A stretch of 64,000 nt of DNA, taken from NCBI GenBank assembly GCA_035368605.1, contig DAOSLF010000008.1, positions 1,964 to 65,963 of the forward strand, read 5' to 3'. The position numbers and the translations under genes are program-made. Within the stretch, counting starts at the first letter, position 1. Each line of letters begins with the position of its first letter. Shown here piece by piece: positions 35,830 through 63,417 of the stretch. The notes under the pieces are model-generated. The model saw only the letters and a list, made by a program, of their open reading frames with translations. It made no database searches and was not told where the DNA came from. The DNA is from Candidatus Omnitrophota bacterium (GTDB lineage: Bacteria > Omnitrophota > Omnitrophia > Omnitrophales > Aquincolibacteriaceae).

Positions 35830-36327
35830 TTATTCCGGCATCTTGCGATACCACCCGTCCAAGGGCTCCGAGTCGCAGGCCCCGGAAGGGAGATCATAGA
35901 CATTGCCGCGGCGGTCGGGGGTTCCCGCCGGCACCAGACACACTGTCCGGACACTCCGCTTGTCCGAAGCCGCGATCACCGTTGCGGGCACGTCCTTGTT
36001 ATATGAAATATCCGCGTTCCTCGCGGGGAAGGTATAGGTCTTTTCGAACTGGTCGCGGTCGTAACAACCGTTCCCGATGATTGCCTCCCCGATCACCCCT
36101 TCCGAGTCGAGATGGCCCCACTTCGTTCCGGCGGGAAGGACACCTCCGTGCTCCTGGACGTAGATACGCAGGCAGTAGGACATGGCGCGCAACCCGGCGA
36201 TCGCGCTATCCGCCCGCTTCTGATCGGCGCCTTTCCGGAAATTCGGGAGCGCGAGCGAAGCCCCGATGGCAATGATGATGACCACCACGATCAGCTCCAG
36301 AAGTGTCAAACCGTTCTTACGCGTCAT
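35830..36327 (-). CDS. prepilin-type N-terminal cleavage/methylation domain protein (GspH/PilE-like pseudopilin)
   Basis: MTRKNG|LTLLELIVVVIIIAIGASLALPNF class III signal with Glu5. 165 aa. Last gene of minor pseudopilin module 1. Confidence 0.7.
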   Translation of the reverse strand: MTRKNGLTLLELIVVVIIIAIGASLALPNFRKGADQKRADSAIAGLRAMSYCLRIYVQEHGGVLPAGTKWGHLDSEGVIGEAIIGNGCYDRDQFEKTYTFPARNADISYNKDVPATVIAASDKRSVRTVCLVPAGTPDRRGNVYDLPSGACDSEPLDGWYRKMPE

Positions 36328-39300
36328 ATCCTGTTCCTTTCACCGGTTCCTCCCGGAAATCCCTTCGGACAATCGAAAAAAGCAACATGCCCGACTTATA
36401 CGGCAAAGGCGGCGGGTTAGTCCTTAGTTTATCATTGAAAGAGTAGTCCCGGACCGGTGCGGTGTAGTACGGAGCCTCTGGCGCCGCGGCTCTGCTCCAG
36501 TAATAATATGTGGTCCCAAAAAAAGCCGGCGTTCCGTCGGAGCGCTTCATCTCTTCAGAATCCCATCCTGAGACAAGGCTTCCCCGAAAATGGAGCGTCG
36601 CCCTAGTGTCATCCGCGGGAGAATTGGGTGTTCCCTTCGTGTCATACCATAACTCCTGGAAATTGATCAGATTTTCCAGCCCGCCGCTGTACTTGGCTTC
36701 CCAAAGAGGCCCCTGAGCTTTCCATGTGTAACGGAGCTTCGGGAAATACGGAAAATAGTTCTGATCACGATCGGGGCAAAGTCCACTTCCAAGCCAGGAA
36801 GGGGACTCCTCGTTATCCGTCGTGGCAGGATCATCCACTGTCCAGTCGGGAAACTTCGTTAATAAATCCCGGTTGTTGTTTTTATCCGGATTAACATTGT
36901 CATATTTTGCACCGCAAATGCAATGGGAGGTCCGCGCGGACGTTTCCGTCTTCCACTCAGAAACCGAAATCCATCTGCAGGCGGGGACAGTTTTTTCTTC
37001 CGTAGGCGGATCACAGACGTACACGGAAGACGGGGTTTGCGCCGTTTGTTTGTACGACTCGATCCAGTTTTTTACGCAAGCATACTGAAGCGGAGCATCA
37101 ACCTCTCCATACCCCTTCCGGATTCTCCGGAACGTGACCCCGGGATATCCCATACTCGGGAACGGGAGTTCACCGCCGTCGCGTTTGTAGATAATGTATC
37201 CATCATCCACTCCCGCCGCAGTGCTGTTGTCCCGCACAGCTTCCGTAATCGGAATCTTTAGAGGATCCGTGGCTTTAAAATAATCCTGGGGCAGCCGGTA
37301 GGTGTTGACATTTTGAGTACCGGGGATCGGCGGATCAGTGCGACTGGGCGTTGCAGGATAAGGCACAGACGCCGAACTTCTCCGATAATATTCTCTGACA
37401 AGATTATAAGGAACCGTGGTCTTGTCGAGATAGTATTGAAACGTGCTTCCCGCAGCCTCCATGATGGTATTATTACTCTTAAGCCTTTGAACGAGCTCTG
37501 AATCCGGATTAAGGTAGCCGATACCATTCTCGTCATAAACGGAAGCAGGAACCCCCGGTGATTCATAGAAATTAAACTGATCGTCCCCAAAATAAAGGCA
37601 TGGAGTACGGTCAGGCTGTGATTCAACGGGTTCCGTCTTAAGGTCACAGGAGGGCATACTCCAGATCGCGGGTTTCAGCGGTTTCACCAGCTGGCTCGGG
37701 AGATGCCCGGTCACGACCGCCGCGTTCAGGATCGTGTCGGACGCGACACGCGACTCCAGCGTTTGGGCAGCTGTTTCATTATCGGAATTCCAGCTGTTGG
37801 ACAAGACACCAAAACTGTCACTGTAAAGATCGGCCGGCGGCACGTTGCGTTCGTTAGTGGCGCAGGCGCCTGATTTGAGTTCCTCCGCCGAGCAAGCATC
37901 CGTTAAGAGAACACCGTCGGCGTCATAAGGGTAAATGTTGTAATCCCCCTGAACCCAAAGGCGCCCATTCGTTACCACAGAAAGCCCGGATAGCGGAAGT
38001 TCCGCTCCGCCACTGACCTTGACAAGAAGAGGTCCCGCGCTTTCAGCGATCACAGGATAAGCCGGGACTGTCTGAACGTAGATCACAGGTTTGTCGGTTG
38101 AAAAATCCAGCCCGTAACGCTGCCGCATCCTGTTCAGAAAAGTTTTTACGTTGATCTCGATCAACCTGGCGGAACGGCGCAATCGATAGTCGTAAAAATT
38201 TTCTTTCAGATAAACGCCGTTCGCTTCGCTCCCGTCCAACAGCCCACTTGAAAATCCGAGCGAAGAGACCGTGGTCGCACCCGCCTTGTGGATGAACAGC
38301 TTGTAGGTCCTGCAGTCCGCATCGACACACCTGAAGACCAGGCTGGCACAGGTTTGGTATTTATACCGCCGAATCCGCTGGTCCTGCGGGTCATCGCTGT
38401 CGCCATCCCGGTCTTCATCGCCGTTAAGAGCAAGCGGCTCGATCAGCTTGTGAGGAGCCAGGTCTTTCCCCCCCACAGGGAGCGCGTGGCGCGTGACACC
38501 ATGAGAGGGATGGTCCGCGATCATCGCGCTGCGGAGATCCGACTTCTTCGGGAACCCCGTCCAGAAAGGGTTGACCATGGGCGCGGTAGAAACGGGGTTC
38601 GACGCTTCCCATCCCGGCAACAGTTTTCGGGCCTCTGCCCTGGAAGGCCCAATAGCAGCAGAAACGCTCAAGTCATTTCCAACCCCTGACTTGTAAGATT
38701 CGGCGTAGGGAACTTTGGAAGGGAAATCGCAGCTCGCTTCAGTCTTTCGGATCGGCGTGGAGGGAACGGCCGACGAAAGCAACACGTACGGCTTCGTTTC
38801 ACCTGGCTTCACAACCAAGATCGTATGGGCGGTGGCCCCGCCATACTGGACTGAGTTCCGGAACGTGTAAACGAACGGGGGAGCTTCGTCAGCATCATAT
38901 CCGAGAAATCTTTTCGCCGCGGGCTCCCCGTAAACCTCGACCCCTTTCGTCCCCTCAACATAAAAAGGGTGGGACGATTCATCGGTCTTGTAAAAATCCG
39001 GAACCGCCGCGCGGTATTTGTTGTTTTTGAGGAAATAATTCTCCGCAAGCGCAGTCTTGAAATAGAAGTAAATGTTGCCTGCGCTCCGGAGCGCGTAATA
39101 TTCGGTATTGGTGGAATCGTCCGGAGGCATCCTGAGCGTCAGCCTACTTCCGCTGCCGGTCATCAAGTAAACGTTCCCGTTCGAAAAAATCGGCCCCTGG
39201 AGTTCCCAATCCGGGCCCGCCGCGATCTCAAGGTCCGTGTTGTAAAAGACCGCATAATCAAAAAGCCGGCCGGTCCGCACTTGAATCTTCTGGGAATATT

Positions 39301-39808
39301 CCACGGACGTCCGGGTCAACGGATGGTGAAGCCGGATTCGAACCTCATAAAGGCGCTGATTTTCCGAGACCTGGGTCGCCGGATCCACCAGGACCTTGAG
39401 ACTTTGAACCTGAATATGCTGAAGCCCATCGAACCGGTAGTTGCCTCCCTTTTGGGGCTTCAGGAACGGCGAGTCGAACCACGTTTCAAGATTCTTCTGG
39501 AAAAGGACCTTCGACCCTTCCGATTCCTCGTAGACGACCAAGTCTCCCGAAGCGTCCGCCTCTGCGGAAGGGAAGCCGTTGGCCCGGACATAGTCGTTGA
39601 ATACTTTAAAGGTTCGATCGATCACAGCTTCGGCCGCCCACGCAAGCCTGATGCGGTCAGCCGTCCGCTGAATAGTCCGCTGCTGCATCCCCAGGCTTAT
39701 AAAATTCCCCGCGAGTACCAGCGAAATGGCAATCACCAGAAAAAACATCAAGATGATCGCGAACCCCTTCTGATTGTTCCTCATAATCCTTTCATTCCAG
39801 TTCGGCAT
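36317..39808 (-). CDS. giant GspK/PilX-like minor (tip) pseudopilin, paralog 1 (1163 aa)
   Basis: N-terminus QKGFAIILMFFLVIAISLVLAG...RTADRIRLAWAAEAVID is PilX_N/GspK-like (prepilin-like helix lacking Glu5). Shares conserved blocks with the two other giants (FDYAVFYNTDLEIAAGPDWELQGPIFSNGNVYLM, YYALRSAGNIYFYFK, FGVLSNSWN, YSGGLENLINFQE, C-terminal LRTNPPPLP...FRE). Contains DEDRDGDSD. Confidence 0.6.
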   Translation of the reverse strand: MPNWNERIMRNNQKGFAIILMFFLVIAISLVLAGNFISLGMQQRTIQRTADRIRLAWAAEAVIDRTFKVFNDYVRANGFPSAEADASGDLVVYEESEGSKVLFQKNLETWFDSPFLKPQKGGNYRFDGLQHIQVQSLKVLVDPATQVSENQRLYEVRIRLHHPLTRTSVEYSQKIQVRTGRLFDYAVFYNTDLEIAAGPDWELQGPIFSNGNVYLMTGSGSRLTLRMPPDDSTNTEYYALRSAGNIYFYFKTALAENYFLKNNKYRAAVPDFYKTDESSHPFYVEGTKGVEVYGEPAAKRFLGYDADEAPPFVYTFRNSVQYGGATAHTILVVKPGETKPYVLLSSAVPSTPIRKTEASCDFPSKVPYAESYKSGVGNDLSVSAAIGPSRAEARKLLPGWEASNPVSTAPMVNPFWTGFPKKSDLRSAMIADHPSHGVTRHALPVGGKDLAPHKLIEPLALNGDEDRDGDSDDPQDQRIRRYKYQTCASLVFRCVDADCRTYKLFIHKAGATTVSSLGFSSGLLDGSEANGVYLKENFYDYRLRRSARLIEINVKTFLNRMRQRYGLDFSTDKPVIYVQTVPAYPVIAESAGPLLVKVSGGAELPLSGLSVVTNGRLWVQGDYNIYPYDADGVLLTDACSAEELKSGACATNERNVPPADLYSDSFGVLSNSWNSDNETAAQTLESRVASDTILNAAVVTGHLPSQLVKPLKPAIWSMPSCDLKTEPVESQPDRTPCLYFGDDQFNFYESPGVPASVYDENGIGYLNPDSELVQRLKSNNTIMEAAGSTFQYYLDKTTVPYNLVREYYRRSSASVPYPATPSRTDPPIPGTQNVNTYRLPQDYFKATDPLKIPITEAVRDNSTAAGVDDGYIIYKRDGGELPFPSMGYPGVTFRRIRKGYGEVDAPLQYACVKNWIESYKQTAQTPSSVYVCDPPTEEKTVPACRWISVSEWKTETSARTSHCICGAKYDNVNPDKNNNRDLLTKFPDWTVDDPATTDNEESPSWLGSGLCPDRDQNYFPYFPKLRYTWKAQGPLWEAKYSGGLENLINFQELWYDTKGTPNSPADDTRATLHFRGSLVSGWDSEEMKRSDGTPAFFGTTYYYWSRAAAPEAPYYTAPVRDYSFNDKLRTNPPPLPYKSGMLLFSIVRRDFREEPVKGTGYDA

Positions 39809-40553
39809 GCAAAAAAACCGTTTTGGTGATCCCCGCTGTTTTCAGATCTTTTTTTGCGCCAAGCGCCGTCCCGACCGAGCCCCGGGCGCTGAGGCTGACG
39901 GAAACTGTTTTCTTCCCTGGGTCTGTCTTGAAGACGGGATAGACACCTTTGTCTTCGCAAAGATTTTTGGGCAACTCCGCAGCGGTGACACAGGCGTCTC
40001 TAAGACTTTCTTCGTTGTCCATTCCGGCAACCGTCACAGTCCCGTCATTATCCAGATCCGCATCAGCATACGGCGCGAACATCCCGGGGGTTGAAAGCTC
40101 GGTCTCGGTCCATAGACGACCAGCGGCCTCAGCAGCTCCAACCGTGTACACTCTGCGGACCAGCTTCGCCTCGGGAGGCACTCCCGACGCAAGCAGATAT
40201 CCGTACCAGACTTCCTTCGCGCCGGTTCCCGAACCAACCAGCGTACCCATCCAGATCTCTCCCTGTTTATCTTCGGAACGATAGTAGAAAGGACCCTGCA
40301 CCGGACTGTCCGCCGGAATCTCCGTGCCATCGGGATAATGGCTCAAAAACCCTTTCCGGACCCCACCCTGCAACTGCAGCTCAAAATCTCGGAAGATTGC
40401 CAGCAGCTCATTCTGCATCCTGGCACCCTGATCCTGGGCGACCTTGGACCCCGTGACCGAAAGATGCAAGGTGCTCATCGCGAACAACACGCTGCCCAGA
40501 ATGCAAACTGCGATGATAAGCTCCATCAAAGAGAGGCCGTGCGGTTCTTTCAT
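39792..40553 (-). CDS. GspJ/PilW-like minor pseudopilin
   Basis: MKEPHG|LSLMELIIAVCILGSVLFA prepilin signal. 253 aa. Paralog of 50742..51458 (shared VWYGYLLASG / VWYGYKFASG, KGVYPVFK). Confidence 0.65.
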   Translation of the reverse strand: MKEPHGLSLMELIIAVCILGSVLFAMSTLHLSVTGSKVAQDQGARMQNELLAIFRDFELQLQGGVRKGFLSHYPDGTEIPADSPVQGPFYYRSEDKQGEIWMGTLVGSGTGAKEVWYGYLLASGVPPEAKLVRRVYTVGAAEAAGRLWTETELSTPGMFAPYADADLDNDGTVTVAGMDNEESLRDACVTAAELPKNLCEDKGVYPVFKTDPGKKTVSVSLSARGSVGTALGAKKDLKTAGITKTVFLHAELE

Positions 40554-40556
40554 AGA

Positions 40557-40988
40557 TCACCCTGCATAAAAGACCGTGGTAACAGTCTCCTGTTTGTCAC
40601 ATTGAACACAAGGCTTGTTCTCGCCTTCTTTCCACGGATAATCCCACCCGATGCGGATAGTCACTTGCTTGAGGTCGGGATCGGATTCAAGAATCTCCAC
40701 CGTCCGGGTCATCGCGCCATGTTTGAGCTCACGAACCTCCGCGACCGCGCTGGTCCCGGGCTGAAGGCTCCGACCGTTGTCTTTCTTGGCCTCCGCGAGC
40801 ATCTTGTCGATCAAATGGACCGCGACCATTTTTTGCTGCATCGCGGCCGCGGCCCGGCTGACATGGCCCGTCACTCCGAGAACACCGGTGGCAACCACAG
40901 TGATCGCTGTAATGGCTACGAGAATCTCAAGCAGGGAGAACCCGCCCATCCCTTTCGAGTCACTTTGGGCCATTTCATCAGCCTTCAT
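40557..40988 (-). CDS. GspI/PilV-like minor pseudopilin
   Basis: ...SKGMG|GFSLLEILVAITAITVVATGVLG prepilin signal. 143 aa. Paralog of 51462..51917 (shared IGWDYPW motif). Confidence 0.65.
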   Translation of the reverse strand: MKADEMAQSDSKGMGGFSLLEILVAITAITVVATGVLGVTGHVSRAAAAMQQKMVAVHLIDKMLAEAKKDNGRSLQPGTSAVAEVRELKHGAMTRTVEILESDPDLKQVTIRIGWDYPWKEGENKPCVQCDKQETVTTVFYAG

Positions 40989-41044: not shown

Positions 41045-41704
41045 TTATAGATCACACGGATTCCGGGCCGCCGTAAAACGGCGCCCTGAAAAACAGGACG
41101 GCGCCGAAACCAGCAAAAGGGCGCCCTGGCGCTGCAAGGGATTTCCGAACGATACATCCATGCCCCCGGAAAAGAAGAGGTTATCCCCTTCCTTCAGCGT
41201 CACGCCCCTGCCATCCACTTTTCCTTCGAAGCGCCCGCTCAGCGTCTGGAGGAAAACCGCGCCCGTACCGTTCAGGATACTGCCGTCAAACGACTTCCCC
41301 GGATCGACAAGCACCTTCCCGCAAAACAGCTCATCGATGGACGGCGAGAAGGCGATGAACTCGACCCCTTTCGAGGGGAAAGCAATGCGATAAAGCCCTT
41401 TCGGCGTCCCTTGGGAAAAACATTCCGGCAACGAGACTTCCGCCCTCCGGAAGATCCCGCTCACGGCCACCCCGAGCCCTTTCGCGATCATCTCGAGCGT
41501 GGCAATCGAAGGATTCCTGATCCTCCCTTTTTCAACCGCGGTCAGGGTCCTGGGATCGAGCCCGTTCGAACGACGACAGAGTTCCACGCCGCTGAGACCG
41601 CGCTCCTTCCGGAGCTCCAGCACCGACCGGCCCAGGTTGATCCCCGTTCGCCGGGGCTCACCCGACCGACCACCGGTTTTTGTCTGAGGGTTTTTCCGTT
41701 TCAT
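41045..41704 (-). CDS. XRE-family HTH transcriptional regulator with C-terminal cupin domain
   Basis: Start at internal Met 41704 with GGAGG RBS; the upstream 86 codons of the track ORF overlap the neighbouring gene's 3' end and look spurious. HTH_3 segment LGRSVLELRKERGLSGVELCRRSNGLDPRTLTAVEKGR. C-terminal cupin beta-strands. Confidence 0.7.
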   Translation of the reverse strand: MKRKNPQTKTGGRSGEPRRTGINLGRSVLELRKERGLSGVELCRRSNGLDPRTLTAVEKGRIRNPSIATLEMIAKGLGVAVSGIFRRAEVSLPECFSQGTPKGLYRIAFPSKGVEFIAFSPSIDELFCGKVLVDPGKSFDGSILNGTGAVFLQTLSGRFEGKVDGRGVTLKEGDNLFFSGGMDVSFGNPLQRQGALLLVSAPSCFSGRRFTAARNPCDL

Positions 41705-53262: not shown

Positions 53263-53273
53263 GTTAGCCCGGG

Positions 53274-54211: not shown

Positions 54212-54243
54212 CAAAGGGGCAGTCTGCACGACTGCCCCTTTGA
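54212..54243 (-). terminator. rho-independent terminator after the first pilin gene
   Basis: Hairpin AGGGGCAGTC-tgcacg-ACTGCCCCT followed on the minus strand by ttgttttgg. Confidence 0.5.
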
Positions 54244-54252: not shown

Positions 54253-54684
54253 TTACTTTGGCATACACCCTTTTGACGAATCCGTAACAGAAACAGCAGT
54301 AAAATTGCCTGAACAATCAAACCCGGTAGCATCAATAGCAAGCGTAATCGTACTATTCGCGGTGTTCGTCATCTTTGAAGTGGCTTTGCAGTCGCCACCA
54401 TTTGTGCATGTATAGGTAAACGACCCTGACTTTATTTCCCGCAGCCCGAGTTTTGCTAGATTGGTGGTATCATTGTTTGAGCTAATCGCAACACCACCGC
54501 CGCCGGTTGAATCCATGTAAGTTGCCTGGGCACGGCGCAAAGTCCCGAGCATCTGCTGGGCTTCGGCGATGGCGGCGCGTTCCGTCTGCGCGGTCATGCG
54601 GGGAAGGATCAGGGCCGCGAGAATGGCGATGATCACGACCACGATCAGCACTTCAATGAGCGTGAAACCTTTTTTATTCATCAT
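54253..54684 (-). CDS. type IV pilin / GspG-like major (pseudo)pilin, tandem paralog 1 (probably the main expressed pilin)
   Basis: MMNKKG|FTLIEVLIVVVIIAILAALILPRM. 143 aa. GGAG-type RBS. Own terminator downstream. Confidence 0.75.
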   Translation of the reverse strand: MMNKKGFTLIEVLIVVVIIAILAALILPRMTAQTERAAIAEAQQMLGTLRRAQATYMDSTGGGGVAISSNNDTTNLAKLGLREIKSGSFTYTCTNGGDCKATSKMTNTANSTITLAIDATGFDCSGNFTAVSVTDSSKGCMPK

Positions 54685-56094: not shown

Positions 56095-57775
56095 CGCTCA
56101 GAATCTCCTCGATCGTAGTGACGCCCCGTTCCACCTTCTTGAGGCCGTTCTGGAAAAGGGTCTCGTATTTTTTTTCCTTTTGCAGCCTGCGCATGGCGTC
56201 GAGGTTCGCGTCCTTGACAATGAGACGCCGGATGTCCTCATCAACAGGGATAACCTCGTAGATCGCGGCGCGACCCCAGTAGCCGATATTGCGGCATTTC
56301 GAACAGCCTTTGGCCCGGTAAATGGTTTCGGCCCGGATCCCGTAATCGGAACGCTCCTTGTCGGTGGGCCGGTAGGCTTCCTTGCAATCCTCGCAGAGGA
56401 GACGGATCAGCCGCTGGGCCGCAACAAGCGCGATACTGCCCGACACAAGATACGGCTGCACCCCGATATCGATCAACCGGGTGACCGCGGTCACGGCATC
56501 GTTCGTGTGAAGGGTCGAGAGGACGAGGTGACCGGTCAGCGACGCGCGGATACAAATCTCAGCCGTCTCAAGGTCGCGCACCTCGCCGACCAGAATGACG
56601 TCCGGGTCCTGGCGAAGAAACGCCCGCAGTCCCGAGGCAAAGGTCAGCCCGATATCCGGCTTCACCTGGACCTGGTTCACGCCCGTAATCTGGTATTCAA
56701 CAGGGTCCTCAATCGTGGTGATGTTGATGTCGGGCGAATGAATCTTGTTGAGGGCAGCGTACAGCGTGGTGCTTTTGCCGCTCCCCGTCGGGCCGGTCAC
56801 AAAGATCAGTCCGTACGGCCGCGTGAGCGCGAGCTCGAAATGCCGGAGCTGTTCCTCCTCGAAACCGAGCGCCCTCAGGTCCAGAAGGTCGGTGCGTTTG
56901 TCCAGGATACGCATGACCACCTTTTCACCGAACACGGTCGGGACCGTCGAAACGCGGACATCGATACGGCGCGCCTTGTAGGAAAGGGAAAACGAACCGT
57001 CCTGCGGGACCCGCTTTTCGGCGATGTCCAGCTTGGAGATGATCTTGATACGGGACACGACCGCGTTGTGAAGCTCGCGGGGCGGCGGCGGCAGTTCATA
57101 AAGGGTACCGTCGATGCGGTAACGGACCGTCAGCTTGTCGTAGAACGGCTCGATGTGGATATCGCTCGCGCGGTCGTCGAGGGATTTTTTGATCATCATG
57201 TCCACGAGCCGCACGACGGGGGCCTGTCCCGCTTCGGCCATCGCGGATTCGAGATCGACCCGCGATTCGTCCTTGGTCTCGATATACTGCTGGCTCGCGG
57301 CATCCACCTCGGACGAGGAGACTACTTCCTGGAGATCGGTCACGCTGTAATACAGGTCAATCGCACGCTTGATATCGGCTTCCGTCGAGAGCACAGTGAG
57401 GATGTCAAGCCCCGTCATTTTCCGGAGGTTATCGAGGAAGATCAGGTCCGGCATCTTCCCGACCGCGATCTTCAGCGACCGCTCGTCGCGGGAAAGCGGA
57501 AGGACCAGGTGTTTGCGGGCAAAATCCGGCGGGATGACCTCCTTCAGGCGCTGGTCGATACGCGGCACCAGCTCATCGGGAGAAACAAAGGAGATGCCGA
57601 GCTGTTCGGAAAGCGCCACGCGAAGATTCGCCTCGGTGATGAAACCAAACCGGATCAGGACCTGGCCGAGAGGTTCACGCGTTTCTTTCTGCTCGACGAG
57701 GGCCTGCGAAAGCTGCTGCACGGTGATCATTTTTTTACCGATCAGGATCTCGCCCAGCAAACTGTTGAGTCTCAT
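56081..57775 (-). CDS. type II secretion / type IV pilus assembly ATPase (GspE/PilB family)
   Basis: N-terminal T2SE_Nter domain (LGEILIGKKMITVQQLSQALVEQ). Walker A GPTGSGKSTT. Asp/His boxes. Tetracysteine CEDC...CSKC. 564 aa. Confidence 0.9.
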   Translation of the reverse strand: MRLNSLLGEILIGKKMITVQQLSQALVEQKETREPLGQVLIRFGFITEANLRVALSEQLGISFVSPDELVPRIDQRLKEVIPPDFARKHLVLPLSRDERSLKIAVGKMPDLIFLDNLRKMTGLDILTVLSTEADIKRAIDLYYSVTDLQEVVSSSEVDAASQQYIETKDESRVDLESAMAEAGQAPVVRLVDMMIKKSLDDRASDIHIEPFYDKLTVRYRIDGTLYELPPPPRELHNAVVSRIKIISKLDIAEKRVPQDGSFSLSYKARRIDVRVSTVPTVFGEKVVMRILDKRTDLLDLRALGFEEEQLRHFELALTRPYGLIFVTGPTGSGKSTTLYAALNKIHSPDINITTIEDPVEYQITGVNQVQVKPDIGLTFASGLRAFLRQDPDVILVGEVRDLETAEICIRASLTGHLVLSTLHTNDAVTAVTRLIDIGVQPYLVSGSIALVAAQRLIRLLCEDCKEAYRPTDKERSDYGIRAETIYRAKGCSKCRNIGYWGRAAIYEVIPVDEDIRRLIVKDANLDAMRRLQKEKKYETLFQNGLKKVERGVTTIEEILSVAYE

Positions 57776-57826
57776 ATTCCTCCGTTCCGGCTTCCGGGAA
57801 CGCCGGTCACTTGCCTTGGCCTGTCT

Positions 57827-59728
57827 CTAATTCGGAATCTCCTGAACCGCCGGGATCCCCGAAATATCTTCCTCATAGGAAGGTACGGCGGGTATCGCGG
57901 CCTGGGACGCCGGCGTTGACACTTTGCCGTCCAGCGTATCAAGCGTCGCCTGCATCAACCGTTTCCGGACGTCGAAATAGCTTTCATAATCAATGGGTTT
58001 TTCCTTCCCGTCCTTGAGTTCCCGGTACCATTCCTTCTTTTTCACATCATAGAAGGGCGCCTTTTCATCCTCAAATTTCAGGCGTTTGTCCGGGACATCG
58101 GGAGTTCTGAGCTCCGACGGATCGCGGATGATGTAGGGCGTCAGGAAAAGGATCAGTTCGCGGTCTTCGATCGATTTGCCGCTATTCGTGAAAAAGGCCT
58201 TCCCGACGACGGGGATGTTCCCGAAGAACGGCACTTTCCGGTCGTTCTTGGTCTGATTGCTGAAGAGCATCCCGCCAAGCGCGATGGTCTGGCCGTCATT
58301 CACCATCAGGGTCGTCCGCGCCGTGCGGACCGTCGTGTCACCCGTCTCGGAGGCGCTCACCGCGATAGTTGACTCGGCCACCGTCGCGAACGTCGGCTCC
58401 ACGGTCAGGGTGATCTGGTTACGCTGGTTGACGAGCGGCGTCACGCGGAGGATCGTGCCGACCTCGGCGCGCTCGATACTTTCCTGCGTCGTGCCGGCCG
58501 CGGCGCCGGAGGTCGTGAAGGTCGTCACGCCGATCGCGGCGTTGGTGGAGATCTTGATTAGCGCGGCGTGGTTGTCGAGGACCAGAATCTTCGGTTTCGC
58601 GATAACCTTGATCTTGTTCGCGTTTTCCAGAGCCTGGATCGTCAGCGTAAAATTCCGGAAATCGCGGGTACCGCTGGTCGTGATGGTCCCCGATTCAATG
58701 CGGGGGTCATACTGGTTCGCGGCGTCCTTGAGGGTGTTCCCGACATTGCTGAAGAAATCCCCCAGACTTTGCGTTTCCTGGGTACTGCCGTTAAAGCGGA
58801 AAGGCCAGTCGGTCGATGACACGCCGCCCGTGATCGTGCCGAGGTTGCCGCTCTGATCGCCCCACCGGATACCGACCGCGCGGCTGAGGTCCTCGAACGT
58901 TTCGACGAGCAGGACATTGATGAGAACCTGATCGACGGGACGGTCCAGCTGCTGGAGCGCGGCGGAGATCATCTTGAGCCGGTCCTCCGAATCCGTCACA
59001 ATGAGGCTGTTCGTCCGGTCATCCACGGAGACTTTTCCGCGGTCCGAGAGTATCTTTTCGACGGCCGCATACACCGCCGCCCCTTCCAGGTCGGTGTCAT
59101 CTTCATTATCGTTATTCTGGGTCAGGGTCGTCAGCCCGCCGCCGATGCTGCCGGAACTGCCCGAACTTCCGGAACTGCCGCTGCTCGATACTTCGATCTC
59201 TTTCGGCTTGCTGACGCGGATGTAATAGAGCTTGAACACGCGCGTCAGAAGCGGTGGCTGTTCGGGGGCGTCCGCCGAAGCGCGAAAAAGATAGATGTTC
59301 CGGCCGGGGATGAAATCATAGCTGACATTGCTGCCGTGGGCGATGGCCTGAAGCGCATCCTCGAGGGTCACATCGGCAAGCGTCATGTTGACCTGGCGTT
59401 CGGCGACCTCTTTGCCGGCCACGAAGTTGATTCCGCTCAATGAGGCGATCACATTCAGGACGTTGATCAGGGACGCGGATTTGAAGTCGAGAAAGAACTT
59501 TCCGGCATCTGTCCGCTCGACCTGCATTTTCGGGGTTTCCTTCGCCGCGGGCGCGCTTGCCGGCACTCCGGCGTACGGTTCGGGCGGACTGCCGTACGGT
59601 GACCCCGGGTCGGCATAAGCCGGATAGTTCCTGTTCGGGTCCTCGGCATGGACCGGCCCGGGCACCCCGGCGACCGCCAGAGTCCCCGCCAAAATCATTG
59701 CCATGATCCTGAGATTTTTTTTATGCAT
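57827..59728 (-). CDS. secretin (GspD/PilQ family) outer-membrane channel
   Basis: Signal peptide. N0/N1 domains (VSVDDRTNSLIV). Secretin domain (KIKVIAKPKILVLDNHAALIKIS...GTILRVTPLV). Ser/Gly low-complexity insert. 633 aa. Confidence 0.85.
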   Translation of the reverse strand: MHKKNLRIMAMILAGTLAVAGVPGPVHAEDPNRNYPAYADPGSPYGSPPEPYAGVPASAPAAKETPKMQVERTDAGKFFLDFKSASLINVLNVIASLSGINFVAGKEVAERQVNMTLADVTLEDALQAIAHGSNVSYDFIPGRNIYLFRASADAPEQPPLLTRVFKLYYIRVSKPKEIEVSSSGSSGSSGSSGSIGGGLTTLTQNNDNEDDTDLEGAAVYAAVEKILSDRGKVSVDDRTNSLIVTDSEDRLKMISAALQQLDRPVDQVLINVLLVETFEDLSRAVGIRWGDQSGNLGTITGGVSSTDWPFRFNGSTQETQSLGDFFSNVGNTLKDAANQYDPRIESGTITTSGTRDFRNFTLTIQALENANKIKVIAKPKILVLDNHAALIKISTNAAIGVTTFTTSGAAAGTTQESIERAEVGTILRVTPLVNQRNQITLTVEPTFATVAESTIAVSASETGDTTVRTARTTLMVNDGQTIALGGMLFSNQTKNDRKVPFFGNIPVVGKAFFTNSGKSIEDRELILFLTPYIIRDPSELRTPDVPDKRLKFEDEKAPFYDVKKKEWYRELKDGKEKPIDYESYFDVRKRLMQATLDTLDGKVSTPASQAAIPAVPSYEEDISGIPAVQEIPN

Positions 59729-59778: not shown

Positions 59779-60255
59779 TCAAAATGAAGCCGTATCCTGC
59801 TCCCGCTGTTCCGAAACCGGTTTCCGGGTCCTCCGTTGCTGAAGTTTTTTCAGCTCGCTTTCGGAAAGCATGGACAATGTCTGCGGGAGACCTCCGGTCT
59901 CGATATCCACTTCCCGTTTCCGGACCGAGACAAGCTTGATACCGTTCTTTTCCTCGCCCTCGAAGAAGACATCGCCGTTCATCACCGCGTAGGCGTCCTC
60001 GGAACCGACGCCAATCCCCTGCAGTTTGATGTTCGAGACGACAGGCGCCGCAACGACCGGTGCCGCGGGTTTTTCAGCCGGGATCGAGGAAGCGAACGGG
60101 TCCCGCACCTCCTGCTGGGCGTTCTCGACCGCGGAGGAAATGGAAGTCCCTTCCGACAGTCTGTCTTTTAAGGGCTCCTCGCCGCGCGCGACGACAGGCA
60201 TCGCGCCTGAGACGAATGCCAGGAGCATCAGGACCATTACGATTCGCTTTGTCAT
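59779..60255 (-). CDS. PilP/GspC-HR-like periplasmic protein (putative)
   Basis: Start at internal Met 60255 with an N-terminal hydrophobic anchor MTKRIVMVLMLLAFVSGA. C-terminal beta-sandwich pattern IKLQGIGVGSEDAYAVMNGDVFFEGEEKNGIKLVSVRKREVDIE, as in PilP. Confidence 0.45.
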   Translation of the reverse strand: MTKRIVMVLMLLAFVSGAMPVVARGEEPLKDRLSEGTSISSAVENAQQEVRDPFASSIPAEKPAAPVVAAPVVSNIKLQGIGVGSEDAYAVMNGDVFFEGEEKNGIKLVSVRKREVDIETGGLPQTLSMLSESELKKLQQRRTRKPVSEQREQDTASF

Positions 60256-60794
60256 TTTCCCGCCTTTTGTCTCAGATAAGTGTCCATTATCATCCGGACC
60301 TGCAGCAGAGGGACTTCCTTTTCGGATCCCCGACCGCCGCTTCGCGTCTGTGTCATGCTGATATCCTGAATGAATACGGGAGGCCGCATCTGTTCCAGGA
60401 CCTTCAGATAATTCAGCAGCGCAAAATAAGTGCATCGCATGTCCGCCTCGGCCCGAAGCCGGACATAGTTGTCGGCGTTTTCCGTCCGGGGTATCAGCCC
60501 CTGGAGCTCAACTTTTTGCTGACTTGCCAGATCGGAAAGCTTGGCGATAAGGATCGGGCGGTCATCCATGTTCGCCAGCAACGCCTCGCGGCGGGCAACC
60601 TCTTCCTTGAGAGCGGTGATTTCCCGGTAAAGCTCCAGTTTCTTTTGGGAGGTCTTTATTTCACCGTGCAGCGTCGCGATCTCCCCGATCGCGGGACGGA
60701 CCAGGGTCAGGAACCCGAAGAAAACGCACAGGAGAGCGACCGCGATCCCGATCCCCCATTCCATGTGCCGCGCTTTCAGTTTCAAACCCGCCAT
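60252..60794 (-). CDS. PilO/GspM-like inner-membrane pilus/T2SS assembly protein
   Basis: Single N-terminal TM helix (WGIGIAVALLCVFFGFLTLV), then coiled-coil and ferredoxin-like domain. 180 aa. Position between the PilM-N fusion and PilP. Confidence 0.55.
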   Translation of the reverse strand: MAGLKLKARHMEWGIGIAVALLCVFFGFLTLVRPAIGEIATLHGEIKTSQKKLELYREITALKEEVARREALLANMDDRPILIAKLSDLASQQKVELQGLIPRTENADNYVRLRAEADMRCTYFALLNYLKVLEQMRPPVFIQDISMTQTRSGGRGSEKEVPLLQVRMIMDTYLRQKAGK

Positions 60795-60810: not shown

Positions 60811-62334
60811 TTATTCGGCCGTGATCCTGAAACGTGTCACGTCCCGGTTCATGACCTTTTCCCTTTTGATCTCTTCAAGTTTCACATCAGAAAAAGCATC
60901 GGCAAAAACCTTCTTCCCCTCGAGCGATTTCAGCCAGACATTGACGGTCTGGGCCTCTTTCTCGGCATTCCCGAGAAAACACACGCCCCGGAGATTCATC
61001 CGTGCGGCCTGCGATGCGGCGCCCGTCTCTTTCCCCGGGGACTTTTCCACCGAGATATAATCGATCCAGACCGACTTCGGGATCCCCTGTCCGATTGCCG
61101 AGAGGAGCGTGGACATTCTTGCCTTGGCATCGGTGGCTCTCTGAAGAAAGGAGGTCTTCCGCGCAAGCGCAGACCATTGTTCTTCCAGCGCCGCCACGGG
61201 CTGGGACACCACGGACTGGTCAACGCCCGACCCGGCCGAGAAGATCCCTTCATACTGCTGATTCAGCTGGAGAATGAGCGGCTGGAACACGACGAGCCGG
61301 ATCAACGCGAACACGAGAAAAATCGCCGCCGCCCCTCCCGCGAGGATGGCCACGAACGAAGCCGGCTTCAGTTGCCGGTCTTCGGGCGGAAGGAGTTTTA
61401 CTTCTCCGACCGGTGATTTGTATCCAAGCGAACGGAGCGCGAGGCCGTACGCGATGACGATCGAGTGCATGACATCCTGGGGGATATCCTTTTCGTCCGG
61501 AAAAACAGCCAGATCGAAACGGACCGTGTAGTTAAAGGCGTGCTCGAGATATTCGACCCAGAGTTTGAGATCACCAAAGCCGGACAGGAACACCTGCTGG
61601 ACGGCCTCGCCGCCGGTAAGCTTGTAGAAATAATCGAGAGAAGCCTTGATCTCGTCAAAAAAGCGGGGCTTGTCCTCCTCCGGTTTTCCCGCCAGAAGAA
61701 AGTCCCGGGACAGATAAACGGCACCCTTCATGCTGAACGTAAGATTGACGTTCCCGTCTGACTGTAGCGTGACAAGGCAGCAGGTCTTGGACTTCTGGAG
61801 CATATTGAGGGAGGCAAAAACCCGGCCGACAGCAGCATAGGCGGGCTCAATCATGAGAACCCTGGCGGACGCGGCACGCAGATCGCTCAGACACTGACTG
61901 AGAATATCCTGCTTCATCGCGGTCACCGTGACGGAAAAGACGTTCTTGTGGGTCATCTGTTCGCTATGATCCATCACGGACTCGGAAAGCTTGAAGGGAA
62001 TGTAGCGGCTTGCTTCAAAACGGATCGTCTCGTTCATTTCCTTCTTCGGAACGGCCGGCATGATGAAATGCCGGGTCACGATGTGGAAGGGGCTGACCGC
62101 CGCGGTCACAAAGGCTCCCGGTTCCCGAATTTTATCAAGCGCCCTACGGATGGCCCTTGCCTCCGGGGACAATTTTTTGAGCCTGTGGGCTTCCTTGCCG
62201 AGAACGGGTTCTCCGCTCTCTTCGGCAATTGGTTCGACCGCATAGGCCTTGACCTGCGGCCCCTTGGCGGTCAAGAGAACGCTCACCGCGATGATTTCGT
62301 TCCGGCCGATGTATACCCCGACACCCTTTGACAT
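60811..62334 (-). CDS. PilM-PilN fusion (GspL-like): actin-like cytoplasmic domain + TM + periplasmic domain
   Basis: N-terminal VGVYIGRNEIIAVSVL... PilM-like ATPase-fold domain of about 320 aa. TM helix FVAILAGGAAAIFLVFALIRLVVF. Periplasmic C-terminal domain of about 150 aa. 507 aa. Confidence 0.6.
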   Translation of the reverse strand: MSKGVGVYIGRNEIIAVSVLLTAKGPQVKAYAVEPIAEESGEPVLGKEAHRLKKLSPEARAIRRALDKIREPGAFVTAAVSPFHIVTRHFIMPAVPKKEMNETIRFEASRYIPFKLSESVMDHSEQMTHKNVFSVTVTAMKQDILSQCLSDLRAASARVLMIEPAYAAVGRVFASLNMLQKSKTCCLVTLQSDGNVNLTFSMKGAVYLSRDFLLAGKPEEDKPRFFDEIKASLDYFYKLTGGEAVQQVFLSGFGDLKLWVEYLEHAFNYTVRFDLAVFPDEKDIPQDVMHSIVIAYGLALRSLGYKSPVGEVKLLPPEDRQLKPASFVAILAGGAAAIFLVFALIRLVVFQPLILQLNQQYEGIFSAGSGVDQSVVSQPVAALEEQWSALARKTSFLQRATDAKARMSTLLSAIGQGIPKSVWIDYISVEKSPGKETGAASQAARMNLRGVCFLGNAEKEAQTVNVWLKSLEGKKVFADAFSDVKLEEIKREKVMNRDVTRFRITAE

Positions 62335-62340
62335 ATCTGA

Positions 62341-63417
62341 TCAGTTTTCCCCGGCAGACAAAGCCGCCGCATTCCGCTCTACTGAAACCTGTTGATTCTC
62401 GGTGATCCGCTCCAGAGCCTGGGCATCCCAGACCGACACACCCGCGACACCCGGATAGACCTCCTCCACATTTCCAACGGCAACGACCTCCGTTCCGTTC
62501 AGGAAGTGAACTTTCTCTCCGGGGCGAACCCCCCGCCTGGCGCCAACATCAACGATCACAAACCGGTATCGGCTATTTATCATAACGACTTTACCCAAAA
62601 GAGGTTCAGACCCGGGCATCCCGGCTTTTTGCATGGAAAAACCCGGAGGCGACACGCCCTCGCTTCCCGAACCTTTTGAAACAGATTTAGCCTCATTCAG
62701 TTCCTTCCGCAGCCCGAGGACAACGGCATCCCGCTCACTGACGGCATTTCTGAGGGTATCCAGCTCCGCCTGGTAACGAAGCGCCAGCTGAAGAGCCTCT
62801 TTCCGGTACTCGGATTCCTCGTTGCGGCTGCTGCGGAGATCCTCCGAGGCCGCCTGAATTCTCTCCGACATGGCTTTGATCCTCGCTTCGAGATGACGGA
62901 TGGTCCGTTCCTTTTTCAGGAGGACGGATTCCCATTGCCGGAGATCTCCGCCGGACTGGATTGTCAGCCGGAGTTGGGGCGGGTTATCCGGACGTCCGGG
63001 GAAAAAGTAGAGATAAGCGAAAACCCCGGCGATCACCCAGGAGAGTCCAAGGAAGAGCACCCACCGGACCGGCAACGCGTTCTTTTTGACTTTCACGGTC
63101 CCGGGAACCGGTCGAGTGGTCGCGCTGGCATACCGGGAGACAAGTTTCAGGACCTTTTCTTCCTCCGCGATATGCTGTTTGATCTTTCCGGAAGGAAGAA
63201 CGCAGGTCAGGACGGAAGCGAATGAAGGAAAGAAACGGCGGCGGGAAGCGGGAGCCTGCCCACCGGGGAGAGCGGCCTTCCCCGAGATCGTTGGATTTGT
63301 TTGTCCGGCAGAATTTTTCCCCCGTACCACTTGCATTGTCGGCAACTCCGGTTCCTTAATTCGGATCGAGATATCAATCTGTGCGGATGACGTATGGTAC
63401 CCCAACAGCACGGCCAA
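62341..63417 (-). CDS. membrane coiled-coil protein with C-terminal PilP/GspC-HR-like beta-domain (putative GspC-like component)
   Basis: TM helix WVLFLGLSWVIAGVFAYLYFF. Long coiled coil (IRHLEARIKAMSERIQAASEDLRSS...). C-terminal VVMINSRYRFVIVDVGARRGVRPGEKVHFLNGTEVVAVGNVEEV. Start codon uncertain. Confidence 0.4.
   Translation of the reverse strand: MAVLLGYHTSSAQIDISIRIKEPELPTMQVVRGKNSAGQTNPTISGKAALPGGQAPASRRRFFPSFASVLTCVLPSGKIKQHIAEEEKVLKLVSRYASATTRPVPGTVKVKKNALPVRWVLFLGLSWVIAGVFAYLYFFPGRPDNPPQLRLTIQSGGDLRQWESVLLKKERTIRHLEARIKAMSERIQAASEDLRSSRNEESEYRKEALQLALRYQAELDTLRNAVSERDAVVLGLRKELNEAKSVSKGSGSEGVSPPGFSMQKAGMPGSEPLLGKVVMINSRYRFVIVDVGARRGVRPGEKVHFLNGTEVVAVGNVEEVYPGVAGVSVWDAQALERITENQQVSVERNAAALSAGEN

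What the first reader, a model, noticed from the sequence alone, without database searches (positions are those of the whole stretch)
35830..63417. Complete type IV filament (T2SS/T4P-hybrid) locus with duplicated minor-pseudopilin modules
On the minus strand, in transcription order, the locus contains a GspC-like coiled-coil protein, a PilM-PilN fusion (GspL-like), PilO/GspM-like, PilP-like, secretin, GspE/PilB ATPase and GspF/PilC platform. These are followed by four tandem major pilins, a receiver, a GspI-GspJ pair plus two giant GspK-like genes, a glycoside hydrolase plus regulator, and a second GspI-GspJ-giant GspK-GspH set. The mix of T4aP-type (PilO/PilP/four pilins) and T2SS-type (PilM-N fusion, GspK-like lacking Glu5) features is unusual. 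So is the duplication of the tip-complex module. No retraction ATPase (PilT) or prepilin peptidase is present in the window.
Basis: partly seen in the sequence, partly recalled or inferred. Interest (0 to 1): 0.8.

Follow-up and report, generated by a model that had tools for sequence, protein, structure and literature searches.

The report
Omnitrophota pilus locus with giant tip pilins
This is an intact type IV pilus / type II secretion-like gene cluster from an uncultured Omnitrophota bacterium, of a kind already reported as common in that phylum, whose unusual feature is three ~1,160-residue cap pilins, currently annotated as hypothetical proteins, that probably sit at the filament tip.

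Summary
The core is intact: a PilM-PilN fusion, PilO/GspM-like, secretin, T2SSE ATPase (E 7e-138), a platform protein and 12 prepilin-type genes.

The "hybrid" label means only that each part scores between T2SS and T4aP models and reaches no equivalog cut-off. By architecture it is a T4aP-type machine, as already reported for Omnitrophota.

Corrections:
- The first gene is not GspC-like. It has a TM segment, a coiled coil and a weak MreC-like barrel.
- The "receiver" is a 245-aa gene split here by an A7/A8 homopolymer frameshift.

This giant family has no Pfam model and is almost confined to Omnitrophota. About 600-aa relatives occur in Verrucomicrobiota. Tip-module multiplication recurs in related MAGs. 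A GH144 beta-1,2-glucanase+CBM9 gene with its regulator is syntenic in three lineages. No PilT or prepilin peptidase lies in the window or 10 kb upstream.

Verdict: a new variant of a known kind, of moderate interest.

The parts
62341..63417 (-). Accessory membrane protein (358 aa, or 331 aa from a later start): TM segment, coiled coil and a small C-terminal beta domain. It is not GspC.
   Evidence: No Pfam or NCBIfam family at E<=0.01. Weak MreC barrel-core match: 0.075 here and 8.5e-4 in the L015 homologue. A homologue sits directly upstream of PilMN in L015 (27% identity, E 1e-12). The database search found only the protein itself.
60811..62334 (-). PilM-PilN fusion (507 aa): a cytoplasmic actin-like PilM domain, a TM segment and a periplasmic PilN-like domain. 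The topology matches GspL.
   Evidence: PilM_2 6.1e-12 (aa 6-175) and PilN 8.6e-4 (aa 410-506). TIGR01175 pilM 1.6e-13 and Amuc_1101 PilM-like 3.4e-13. Best PDB hits are Thermus and Myxococcus PilM. IMG names it PilM/PilN. The fusion is conserved in L003 and L015.
60252..60794 (-). PilO/GspM-like alignment protein (180 aa).
   Evidence: T2SSM_b 5.3e-5, PilO 3e-4. GspM_XpsM 1.3e-14 at 54.3 bits, below the cut-off of 60.
59779..60255 (-). PilP / GspC-HR-position protein (158 aa) with a signal or anchor segment and no lipobox Cys.
   Evidence: No family hit even at E<=10, and no PDB sequence hit. It is conserved at the same position in L003 and L015, with an invariant C-terminal block. The assignment rests on position and size only.
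57827..59728 (-). Outer-membrane secretin (633 aa) with N0/STN, one Secretin_N domain and the secretin domain.
   Evidence: Secretin 1.5e-38, Secretin_N 5.7e-12, STN 1.1e-5. PilQ 211.8 bits against GspD 198.4 bits, both below their cut-offs.
56081..57775 (-). Assembly ATPase (564 aa), PilB/GspE type, with an N-terminal MshEN domain.
   Evidence: T2SSE 6.7e-138, MshEN 1.2e-14. GspE 612.4 bits and PilB 612.9 bits, both below cut-off. The c-di-GMP motif model NF053729 scores 58.7 bits against a cut-off of 38. The best PDB match over the full length is Geobacter PilB at 508 bits.
54748..56088 (-). Inner-membrane platform protein, PilC/GspF type (446 aa by the gene call).
   Evidence: T2SSF twice, 1.8e-56. 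GspF 314.9 bits, below the cut-off of 424; PilC models score 261-266 bits.
54253..54684 (-). Pilin G1 (143 aa, G|FTLIE), the probable major pilin.
   Evidence: N_methyl 2.2e-9. The N-terminus matches GspG. It is followed directly by the strongest terminator-like hairpin in the locus.
54212..54242 (-). Terminator-like hairpin (13-bp stem, 8 G-C pairs, then a T run) directly after G1.
   Evidence: Overall terminator counts are not above the shuffles, but this stem is by far the longest.
53731..54147 (-). Pilin G2 (138 aa, G|FTLAE).
   Evidence: N_methyl 5e-7. 52% identical to G3.
53274..53708 (-). Pilin G3 (144 aa, G|FTLAE).
   Evidence: N_methyl 1.7e-6.
52837..53307 (-). Pilin G4 (141-156 aa depending on the start, G|FTLTE).
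   Evidence: N_methyl 1.1e-6. Gene calls of 156 and 141 aa in sister contigs.
52006..52742 (-). Stand-alone response regulator. It is a 245-aa gene in a sister assembly, split here by an A7-versus-A8 homopolymer at about 52417-52424.
   Evidence: Response_reg 1.9e-17. The intact 245-aa version in L002 has the receiver at aa 123-200. A7 occurs in the window, L024 and L025; A8 occurs in L002.
51462..51917 (-). Minor pilin I1 (151 aa, G|FSMLE), GspI/PilV-like.
   Evidence: N_methyl 4e-5. PilV 5.9e-5 and gspI 3.8e-4. 38% identical to I2.
50742..51458 (-). Minor pilin J1 (238 aa, G|LTLLE) with a GspJ/PilW fold.
47236..50703 (-). Giant cap pilin K1 (1,155 aa, KG|FVMIM, no Glu5).
   Evidence: Paralogue of K3, 39% identical over the full length. 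No Pfam family. Weak HpsA match.
43726..47235 (-). Giant cap pilin K2 (1,169 aa, no Glu5). Its region of about aa 700-1040 is unrelated to that of K1 and K3.
   Evidence: Aligns to K1 only at aa 16-713 and 1039-1168. 20 Cys residues.
50539..50694 (-). 156-nt patch that is 99.4% identical to 47056-47211. It encodes the leader and N-terminal helix shared by K1 and K2.
   Evidence: It also shows up as cross-hits of L002. Elsewhere K1 and K2 are about 35% identical at the protein level.
41748..43658 (-). GH144-family (endo-beta-1,2-glucanase family) enzyme with a C-terminal CBM9 domain and an N-terminal hydrophobic signal-like segment.
   Evidence: Glycoamylase PF10091 6.5e-69, CBM9_1 5.9e-15. PDB 8xul 1e-78 and 5gzh endo-beta-1,2-glucanase 2e-48. 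Syntenic in L003/L004 and L019. The signal peptide was judged by eye.
41045..41704 (-). XRE-type HTH regulator (219 aa) with a weak cupin C-terminus, paired with the GH144 gene.
   Evidence: HTH_3 4.2e-9, Cupin_2 0.0086. Conserved beside GH144 in L003 and L019.
40557..40988 (-). Minor pilin I2 (143 aa, G|FSLLE), GspI-like.
   Evidence: TIGR01707 gspI 9.5e-9 over model positions 1-96 of 101, at 35.7 bits, below the cut-off of 44.
39792..40553 (-). Minor pilin J2 (253 aa, G|LSLME), paralogue of J1.
   Evidence: 44% identical to J1, E 2e-62. No family hit of its own.
36317..39784 (-). Giant cap pilin K3 (1,155 aa, KG|FAIIL, no Glu5). This is the modelled member.
35830..36327 (-). Pilin H (165 aa, G|LTLLE), probably a GspH/FimU-type adaptor.
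   Evidence: N_methyl 7.9e-6. Only the N-terminus matches GspG/GspH. A homologue follows K in L005, L009, L012, L014, L015, L017 and L019. The role is inferred from position.

Best explanation
One envelope-spanning type IVa-pilus-like machine polymerises small pilins into a filament. Its parts are the PilM-PilN fusion, a PilO/GspM-like protein, a PilP-position protein, a secretin, a PilB/GspE ATPase with an MshEN domain and a PilC/GspF platform. G1 is probably the major subunit.

Assembly is primed by one of several alternative tip complexes, each a GspI-like, a GspJ-like and a giant cap pilin: I1-J1-K1, I1-J1-K2 or I2-J2-K3. H probably links the tip complex to the shaft.

The cap pilins lack Glu5, so nothing can be added above them. 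Their GspK-like pilin domain carries a ComZ / ice-binding-type beta-solenoid and a variable, Cys-rich distal module. They would therefore both plug the tip, the job PilY1 does elsewhere, and present different binding surfaces.

What is shown: gene content, folds, absence of Glu5, paralogy and synteny.
What is inferred: tip location, alternative use of the modules, an adhesive role, and any regulation by the response regulator or by c-di-GMP.
For: Core machine:
- The core HMM hits are listed in the observation check.
- The ATPase matches Geobacter and Myxococcus PilB over its full length.
- PilM is closest to Thermus and Myxococcus PilM.
- The secretin has N0 plus a single N domain.

Pilins:
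- Twelve genes carry class III leaders (sequence).
- A strong hairpin follows G1.
- I2 matches gspI nearly end to end.

Giant cap pilins:
- No Glu at +5 in any of 33 family members.
- Conserved N- and C-terminal parts flank an indel-rich region at 700-1000.
- K2 carries a different module there.
- K1 and K2 share a 99.4%-identical 156-nt 5' patch encoding the helix that would pack against I1-J1.

Precedent and lineage pattern:
- I-J-K-I-J-K, K-K and K-K-K arrangements recur in other Omnitrophota MAGs.
- Cyanobacterial PilX-solenoid/HpsA proteins and two priming sets on one machine (bioRxiv 10.64898/2026.02.12.705559).
- Multiple minor-pilin/PilY1 sets in Myxococcus (PMC7541494, PMC8833165).
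- T4aP loci are common in Omnitrophota, and V. archaeovorus LiM is reported to express type-4a pili (PMC10066038).
Against: - No PilT or prepilin peptidase in the 74 kb inspected, so retraction and even processing are unproven.
- The platform, the pilin N-termini, the PilO-like protein and the I/J proteins score best against T2SS models.
- A Sec-type glycoside hydrolase gene sits inside the locus, as in dedicated T2SS operons.
- Residues 706-745, 797-815 and 948-1003 of the K3 model have low confidence.
- The solenoid insertion point could not be checked because no coordinates were available.
- There are no expression or localisation data.
Confidence: 0.55

Rival explanations
1. It is a dedicated type II secretion system. 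A short periplasmic pseudopilus capped by I-J-K pushes Sec-exported cargo through the secretin. The first candidate cargo is the embedded GH144 beta-1,2-glucanase-CBM9 enzyme, and the HTH-cupin regulator would tie expression to substrate availability.
For: - Best or equal scores to GspF, GspE, GspM_XpsM and gspI, and the GspG N-terminus.
- GspJ and GspK folds.
- No PilT in the window.
- The PilM-PilN fusion has GspL topology.
- GH144 plus HTH is syntenic with the locus in three lineages.
- The arrangement resembles pulA next to the pul genes (own knowledge).
Against: - No GspC: no HR-PDZ protein was found.
- No Pfam T2SSL or T2SSK hit.
- The secretin has one N domain and scores slightly higher as PilQ.
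- Four tandem pilin genes and three 125-kDa caps are not expected for a periplasmic piston.
- All equivalog cut-offs are missed.
- GH144 is absent from several related loci (L005, L009, L014, L015).
- The solenoid cap class is so far tied to real pili (PMC6561018).
Confidence: 0.25
2. It is a competence (DNA-uptake) pilus. The solenoid cap pilins act like Thermus ComZ as tip DNA receptors, supplying nucleotides or genes to a small-genome bacterium.
For: ComZ is the closest solved structure, and it binds DNA at a pilus tip (PMC6561018). Cyanobacterial PilX_Com sets prime competence pili.
Against: - No comEA, comEC or dprA homologue among the scanned ORFs of the window.
- The giants are twice ComZ's size, with variable Cys-rich modules.
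- Their only named sequence relative is the motility / EPS-type HpsA, and that match is weak.
- Three divergent caps are not needed for sequence-independent DNA binding.
Confidence: 0.1
3. It is an Hps-like system. The filament and its HpsA-like caps serve secretion of, or adhesion to, the cell's own extracellular polysaccharide, with the GH144/CBM9 enzyme trimming that polymer.
For: All three giants match NCBIfam HpsA weakly but consistently at the start of the solenoid (5.5e-7 to 9.5e-4). HpsA-type PilX_EPS proteins are linked to EPS-dependent motility. A CBM-bearing glycanase lies in the locus.
Against: - The HpsA score is 17-28 bits against a cut-off of 400, so these are not orthologues.
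- No glycosyltransferase genes lie within the locus.
- The link between GH144 and any self-made glucan is pure inference.
Confidence: 0.07

Closest known systems
ComZ, the tip-associated competence pilin of Thermus thermophilus (PDB 6QVI; PMC6561018)
   Different: ComZ is 554 aa and the giants are about 1,160 aa, with extra insertions (about 245-400) and a variable Cys-rich module (about 700-1000). Identity in the structural alignment is about 10%, and there is no detectable sequence hit to PDB. Three paralogues occur in one locus. No evidence of DNA binding.
Cyanobacterial PilX_EPS / HpsA solenoid minor pilins, and the two-priming-complex model (bioRxiv 10.64898/2026.02.12.705559)
   Same: Cap pilins that lack Glu5 and have an expanded solenoid, some over 1,280 aa. 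The solenoid is proposed to replace the PilY1 plug. Several PilX-PilV-PilW-FimT sets serve one machine. The giants give a weak NCBIfam HpsA hit.
   Different: Scores are far below the HpsA cut-off. The phylum is different, and this separate family has no Pfam model. Here the gene order is I-J-K-H and the modules lie inside the machine operon.
GspK-GspI-GspJ pseudopilus tip complex of the T2SS (ETEC 3CI0, P. aeruginosa XcpVWX 5VTM)
   Different: GspK carries an alpha-helical insert of about 100 aa, not a roughly 1,000-aa beta-rich body. No Pfam T2SSK hit. The surrounding machine lacks GspC.
Myxococcus xanthus T4aP with several minor-pilin/PilY1 gene sets (PMC7541494, PMC8833165)
   Same: One T4aP machine and alternative priming/tip complexes encoded by paralogous gene sets, with a large (over 1,000-aa) tip protein.
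   Different: There the large tip protein (PilY1) is a separate non-pilin protein. Here no PilY1 gene is found and the bulk is part of the cap pilin itself.
Type-4a pilus loci reported across Omnitrophota (PMC10066038), and the T2SS-like loci next to giant genes (bioRxiv 10.1101/2023.11.21.568195)
   Same: The same phylum and the same general class of machine, with a proposed role in attachment to host or prey cells.
   Different: Those reports do not describe the ~1,160-aa cap pilin family, its multiplication or the GH144 linkage. No co-located F-type ATPase, rcpC gene or >20-kb ORF is present in this window.

Membership tests
Type IV filament superfamily | T2SSE-family assembly ATPase | tested here: met
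   PF00437 6.7e-138.
Type IV filament superfamily | Polytopic GspF/PilC platform protein | tested here: met
   PF00482 twice, 1.8e-56.
Type IV filament superfamily | Pilins with a class III signal peptide (G|FxxxE) | tested here: met
   N_methyl hits in 8 proteins (I2 just below the cut-off). The motif is visible by eye in all 12, with Glu5 absent only in K1-K3.
Type IV filament superfamily | Prepilin peptidase (Peptidase_A24) | tested here: not met
   Not found in any ORF of 150 aa or more in the window, nor in the 10 kb upstream. It may lie elsewhere in the genome.
Type IVa pilus machine (T4aP) | PilM, PilN, PilO, PilP alignment complex | tested here: inconclusive
   PilM is clear and fused to a weak PilN. 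PilO is weak (21.4 bits against a cut-off of 22). The PilP-position protein has no hit.
Type IVa pilus machine (T4aP) | PilB and PilQ at NCBIfam cut-off level (TIGR02538 equivalog; TIGR02515 subfamily) | tested here: not met
   PilB 612.9 bits against a cut-off of 675.65. PilQ 211.8 bits against 284.35.
Type IVa pilus machine (T4aP) | Retraction ATPase PilT | tested here: not met
   None in the window or 10 kb upstream. The rest of the genome could not be searched.
Type II secretion system | GspC (TM, HR domain, and PDZ or coiled coil) | tested here: not met
   The first gene has a TM segment and a coiled coil, but its C-terminal domain resembles the MreC barrel weakly. No HR or PDZ domain.
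Type II secretion system | GspD, GspE, GspF and GspM at equivalog level | tested here: not met
   GspE 612.4 against 630.25, GspD 198.4 against 351.35, GspF 314.9 against 424, GspM_XpsM 54.3 against 60.
Type II secretion system | GspI-GspJ-GspK tip pseudopilins | tested here: met
Type II secretion system | Secretion of folded periplasmic cargo | not testable with these tools
   The candidate cargo GH144-CBM9 is encoded in the locus. This needs a secretome experiment.
GspK family (Pfam T2SSK) | Match to the T2SSK models | tested here: not met
   No Pfam family at E<=0.01 for K1, K2 or K3.
ComZ / PilX-solenoid cap pilins | N-terminal pilin helix without Glu5 | tested here: met
   Model helix 3-69. 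The +5 residue is L, M, F, A, V, S, Y or T in all 33 members checked.
ComZ / PilX-solenoid cap pilins | GskK-like pilin sheet plus an ice-binding-type beta-solenoid | tested here: met
ComZ / PilX-solenoid cap pilins | Solenoid inserted between the penultimate and last strands of the pilin sheet | not tested
The conserved C-terminal strand 1135-1146 is only suggestive.
HpsA (NCBIfam NF038301) | Score above the equivalog cut-off of 400 bits | tested here: not met
   16.9-27.6 bits over about 50 residues.
GH144 endo-beta-1,2-glucanase family | Catalytic-domain homology | tested here: met
   PF10091 at 232 bits against a cut-off of 27. PDB 5gzh 2e-48 and 8xul 1e-78. Activity and substrate were not testable.
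MshEN c-di-GMP-binding ATPases | Tandem 24-residue RLGxx(L/V/I)(L/V/I)xxG... motifs | tested here: inconclusive
   NF053729 scores 58.7 bits against a cut-off of 38. By eye, both motif copies lack the leading Arg (LLGEILIGKK..., PLGQVLIRFG...). The motif definition is from my own knowledge.

The most novel reading that the evidence does not exclude
The three giant cap pilins are interchangeable host- or prey-recognition heads on the pilus of a parasitic or predatory Omnitrophota cell. Their shared N-terminal helix patch lets K1 and K2 swap on the same I1-J1 base. The GH144 beta-1,2-glucanase-CBM9 enzyme embedded in the locus is an effector exported with the help of the same machine, and it attacks the periplasmic or cyclic beta-1,2-glucans of Gram-negative targets. 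The locus would then be a combined grappling and secretion device.
Probability: 0.12. Interest if true: 0.8.

Novelty: new variant of a known kind. Interest (0 to 1): 0.45.

Why it matters
Omnitrophota are uncultured, mostly ultra-small bacteria thought to live as predators or parasites. How they recognise and hold partners is unknown. This locus points to a concrete, testable candidate: a family of ~125-kDa cap pilins that has no Pfam model and is annotated only as 'hypothetical protein'. The family has a conserved pilin-solenoid chassis and a swappable distal module, and it is multiplied repeatedly within the lineage.

The finding also extends the recently recognised solenoid-PilX idea (Thermus ComZ, cyanobacterial HpsA) to Omnitrophota, with ~600-aa relatives in Verrucomicrobiota. 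That supports the view that a bulky cap pilin can stand in for PilY1. The machine itself is ordinary.

Tried and rejected
- **Apparent independent homologue.** P0002 and its contig L002 looked like a separate homologue, but they are the same organism (99.93% identity). They were not counted as one.
- **Giant-family profile against PDB sequences.** No hit at E<=1.
- **Pfam on ten distant family members.** Nothing except one weak PilX_N match.
- **PilP-position protein.** No Pfam hit even at E<=10, and a three-sequence profile found nothing in PDB. 'PilP' therefore remains positional.
- **First gene.** The homologue search returned only the protein itself. The GspC reading is rejected.
- **HpsA orthology.** Rejected on score.
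- **Rfam scan for riboswitches** (for example c-di-GMP) in the locus. Only two tRNAs were found, far upstream.
- **Promoter and terminator scans.** Terminator-like counts matched the shuffles and promoter-like sites were only modestly above them (11 found against 4.6±2.8 and 7.1±2.6 expected). Only the hairpin after G1 stands out.
- **ATPase assignment by score.** A tie between GspE and PilB.
- **Rest of the genome.** I could not search it for pilT, pilD or com genes.
- **Solenoid insertion point.** I could not inspect the model coordinates to verify it.

Full report
**Observation**

The region 35830-63417 is one uninterrupted run of minus-strand genes with short gaps or overlaps. In transcription order it contains:

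1. A 358-aa membrane protein with no family.
2. A 507-aa protein with PilM_2 (6e-12) at the N-terminus, a TM segment and a weak PilN domain (8.6e-4) at the C-terminus.
3. A 180-aa PilO / T2SSM_b / GspM_XpsM-like protein.
4. A 158-aa exported protein with no family.
5. A secretin (Secretin 1.5e-38, Secretin_N, STN).
6. An ATPase (T2SSE 6.7e-138, MshEN).
7. A platform protein (T2SSF twice).
8. Four ~140-aa pilins with G|FTLxE leaders.
9. A receiver protein.
10. Two shorter minor pilins (I1, J1).
11. Two tandem ~1,160-aa proteins (K1, K2).
12. A PF10091 glycoside hydrolase with CBM9.
13. An HTH regulator.
14. A second I-J pair (I2, J2), a third giant (K3) and a 165-aa pilin (H).

Downstream lie TolC-like, MFP and two RND genes. 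Upstream lie leuCD and housekeeping genes.

**Source organism**

The proteins are found in several public assemblies and are named 'Candidatus Omnitrophota bacterium'. They cluster at ≥90% identity with proteins of 'Omnitrophica bacterium ADurb.Bin314', so it is a very close relative. The giants are annotated only as 'hypothetical protein'.

**Which kind of machine**

No component reaches an NCBIfam cut-off (for GspM_XpsM):

| Component | Scores in bits (cut-off) |
|---|---|
| ATPase | GspE 612.4 (630); PilB 612.9 (676) |
| Secretin | PilQ 212 (284); GspD 198 (351) |
| Platform | GspF 315 (424); PilC 261-266 (700) |
| PilO-like | GspM_XpsM 54 (60) |

'Hybrid' therefore describes divergence, not a mosaic. 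The architecture leans towards T4aP:

- The ATPase aligns end to end with Geobacter and Myxococcus PilB, including the N-terminal domain.
- The cytoplasmic domain of the fusion is closest to Thermus and Myxococcus PilM.
- The secretin has N0 plus a single N domain.
- There are four tandem pilin genes. The first is followed by a 13-bp-stem hairpin, typical of a highly expressed major pilin gene.

Against a T2SS, there is no GspC. The first gene has a TM segment and a coiled coil, but its C-terminal domain resembles the MreC barrel only weakly (0.075 here; 8.5e-4 in its L015 homologue).

Against a complete T4aP, there is no PilT and no prepilin peptidase in the window or in 10 kb upstream.

T4aP loci have been reported as common in all Omnitrophota classes (PMC10066038). 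The machine as such is therefore not new.

**The tip modules**

- I2 matches the gspI model almost end to end (9.5e-9, below cut-off), and I1 is 38% identical to it.
- J1 and J2 are 44% identical.
- K1 and K3 are 39% identical over the full length. K2 aligns with them only over about 1-713 and the last ~130 residues.

The two modules are thus old duplicates. One exception is a 156-nt stretch, 99.4% identical between K1 and K2, that encodes the leader and the N-terminal helix. This is the part expected to pack against I1 and J1. Its homogenisation fits two caps sharing one I-J base, although that is an inference.

**What the giants are**

They have no Pfam family and no PDB sequence relative. 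They have only a 17-28-bit match to cyanobacterial HpsA.

An exhaustive profile search of 1.84 billion representatives gave:

- About 36 full-length giants.
- 89 hits below 1e-30.
- 1,877 hits below 1e-3. Many of these are 550-700-aa proteins that share profile positions 1-245 and 400-676.

A scan of species-representative genomes found full-length relatives almost only in Omnitrophota MAGs. Partial matches fell in ~600-aa proteins next to E5-bearing pilin genes in Verrucomicrobiae and Chthoniobacteraceae.

The AF2 model of K3 (38-sequence alignment, pLDDT 75, pTM 0.78) shows a 67-residue N-terminal helix, a pilin-type sheet and a large beta-rich body.

- Foldseek's only significant PDB hit is Thermus ComZ.

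This is the same pair of resemblances described for ComZ itself: a GspK-like pilin domain with an IBP-like solenoid inserted. ComZ was argued to fit only at the pilus tip (PMC6561018).

None of the 33 family members with a recognisable cleavage motif has Glu at +5. Conservation is high at 1-75, 176-250, 601-700 and 1026-1125. Residues 701-1000 are indel-rich, carry most of the Cys residues and are modelled with low confidence.

A 2026 preprint reports the same design in cyanobacteria. PilX proteins there carry solenoids, and an expanded HpsA-like subfamily exists. Two core minor-pilin sets prime two filament types on one machine, and the solenoid is proposed to replace the PilY1 plug. No PilY1-like gene is present in this locus.

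**Lineage pattern**

Related Omnitrophota contigs show the following:

- The same machine order with one I-J-K-H set (L003/L004).
- I-J-K-I-J-K (L011).
- K-K (L005, L007).
- K-K-K (L010).
- A homologue of H after K in seven loci.

Multiplication of the cap or of the whole tip module is therefore recurrent in this group.

The GH144-family enzyme matches PDB 8xul (1e-78) and the endo-beta-1,2-glucanase 5gzh (2e-48). It has a CBM9 domain and is paired with an HTH-cupin regulator. The pair lies next to the tip genes in the window, in L003/L004 and in L019, but is absent from L005, L009, L014 and L015.

**Most likely mechanism**

A T4aP-like machine builds a G1-based filament that is primed and capped by one of three alternative I-J-K complexes. 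The giant caps act as both plug and variable adhesin (confidence about 0.55).

The main rival is a dedicated T2SS that exports the GH144 enzyme (about 0.25). A competence pilus and an Hps-like polysaccharide system are minor rivals. Deciding between them needs the rest of the genome (pilT, pilD, com genes), reference phylogenies, complex prediction and expression or secretome data.

**Verdict**

The 'hybrid' and 'unusual duplication' claims are weaker than stated, because divergent T4aP machines with T2SS-like minor pilins and multiple priming sets are both documented. What is new is the Omnitrophota family of ~1,160-aa ComZ/HpsA-type cap pilins, its repeated multiplication and module swapping, and the conserved GH144 linkage. 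This is a new variant of a known kind, of moderate interest.

Noticed in passing
window 52006-52742 (-), homopolymer at about 52417-52424: The response-regulator gene is split by a poly-A tract. A7 occurs in the window and in two JGI assemblies (L024, L025). A8, which gives an intact 245-aa protein, occurs in ENA contig L002. This is either an assembly error or slipped-strand variation.
   Followed up: partly
L003 14598-14979 (also L004): The orthologous response regulator of a different Omnitrophota species is also frameshifted, inside the receiver domain and at a non-homopolymer site. The shift is present in two independent assemblies. The gene may be decaying, or recoded, in more than one lineage.
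   Followed up: partly
window 50539-50694 and 47056-47211 (-): A 156-nt direct repeat, 99.4% identical, at the 5' ends of K1 and K2, which are otherwise about 35% identical at the protein level. It looks like a gene-conversion patch. It also coincides with the end of contig L002, so it breaks assemblies and could mediate deletion of K1.
   Followed up: partly
window 54212-54242 (-): A 13-bp-stem, G+C-rich hairpin followed by a T run, directly downstream of the first pilin gene. It is the only outstanding terminator-like site in the locus.
   Followed up: no
window 4286-6448 (-) and ATPase N-terminus 57600-57775 (-): A receiver-PAS-GGDEF-EAL protein is encoded in the same window. The pilus ATPase passes the NCBIfam MshE-type c-di-GMP motif model at 58.7 bits against a cut-off of 38. 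By eye, though, both motif copies lack the leading Arg.
   Followed up: partly
window 25706-35719 (-): A TolC-like OEP, an MFP and two tandem RND pumps directly follow the pilus locus. This adjacency is conserved in L003, L005 and L019. No functional link has been established.
   Followed up: partly
window 7657-9129 (-): A 490-aa protein with DUF11 repeats, CARDB and a Chlamydia OMP6-like match, probably a surface or envelope protein.
   Followed up: no
window 6956-7133 (-): Two adjacent tRNA genes, the only Rfam hits in the window.
   Followed up: no
L015 5816-8856 and 19565-22562: A related Omnitrophota MAG appears to carry two ORF pairs of ATPase and platform size around a single I-J-K-H set. 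Only the second pair was matched by tblastn.
   Followed up: no
window 56066-57919 (+) and 33806-35611 (+): Long antisense ORFs of 617 and 601 aa lie opposite the ATPase and TolC-like genes. They overlap well-supported minus-strand genes and are best read as by-products of composition.
   Followed up: no
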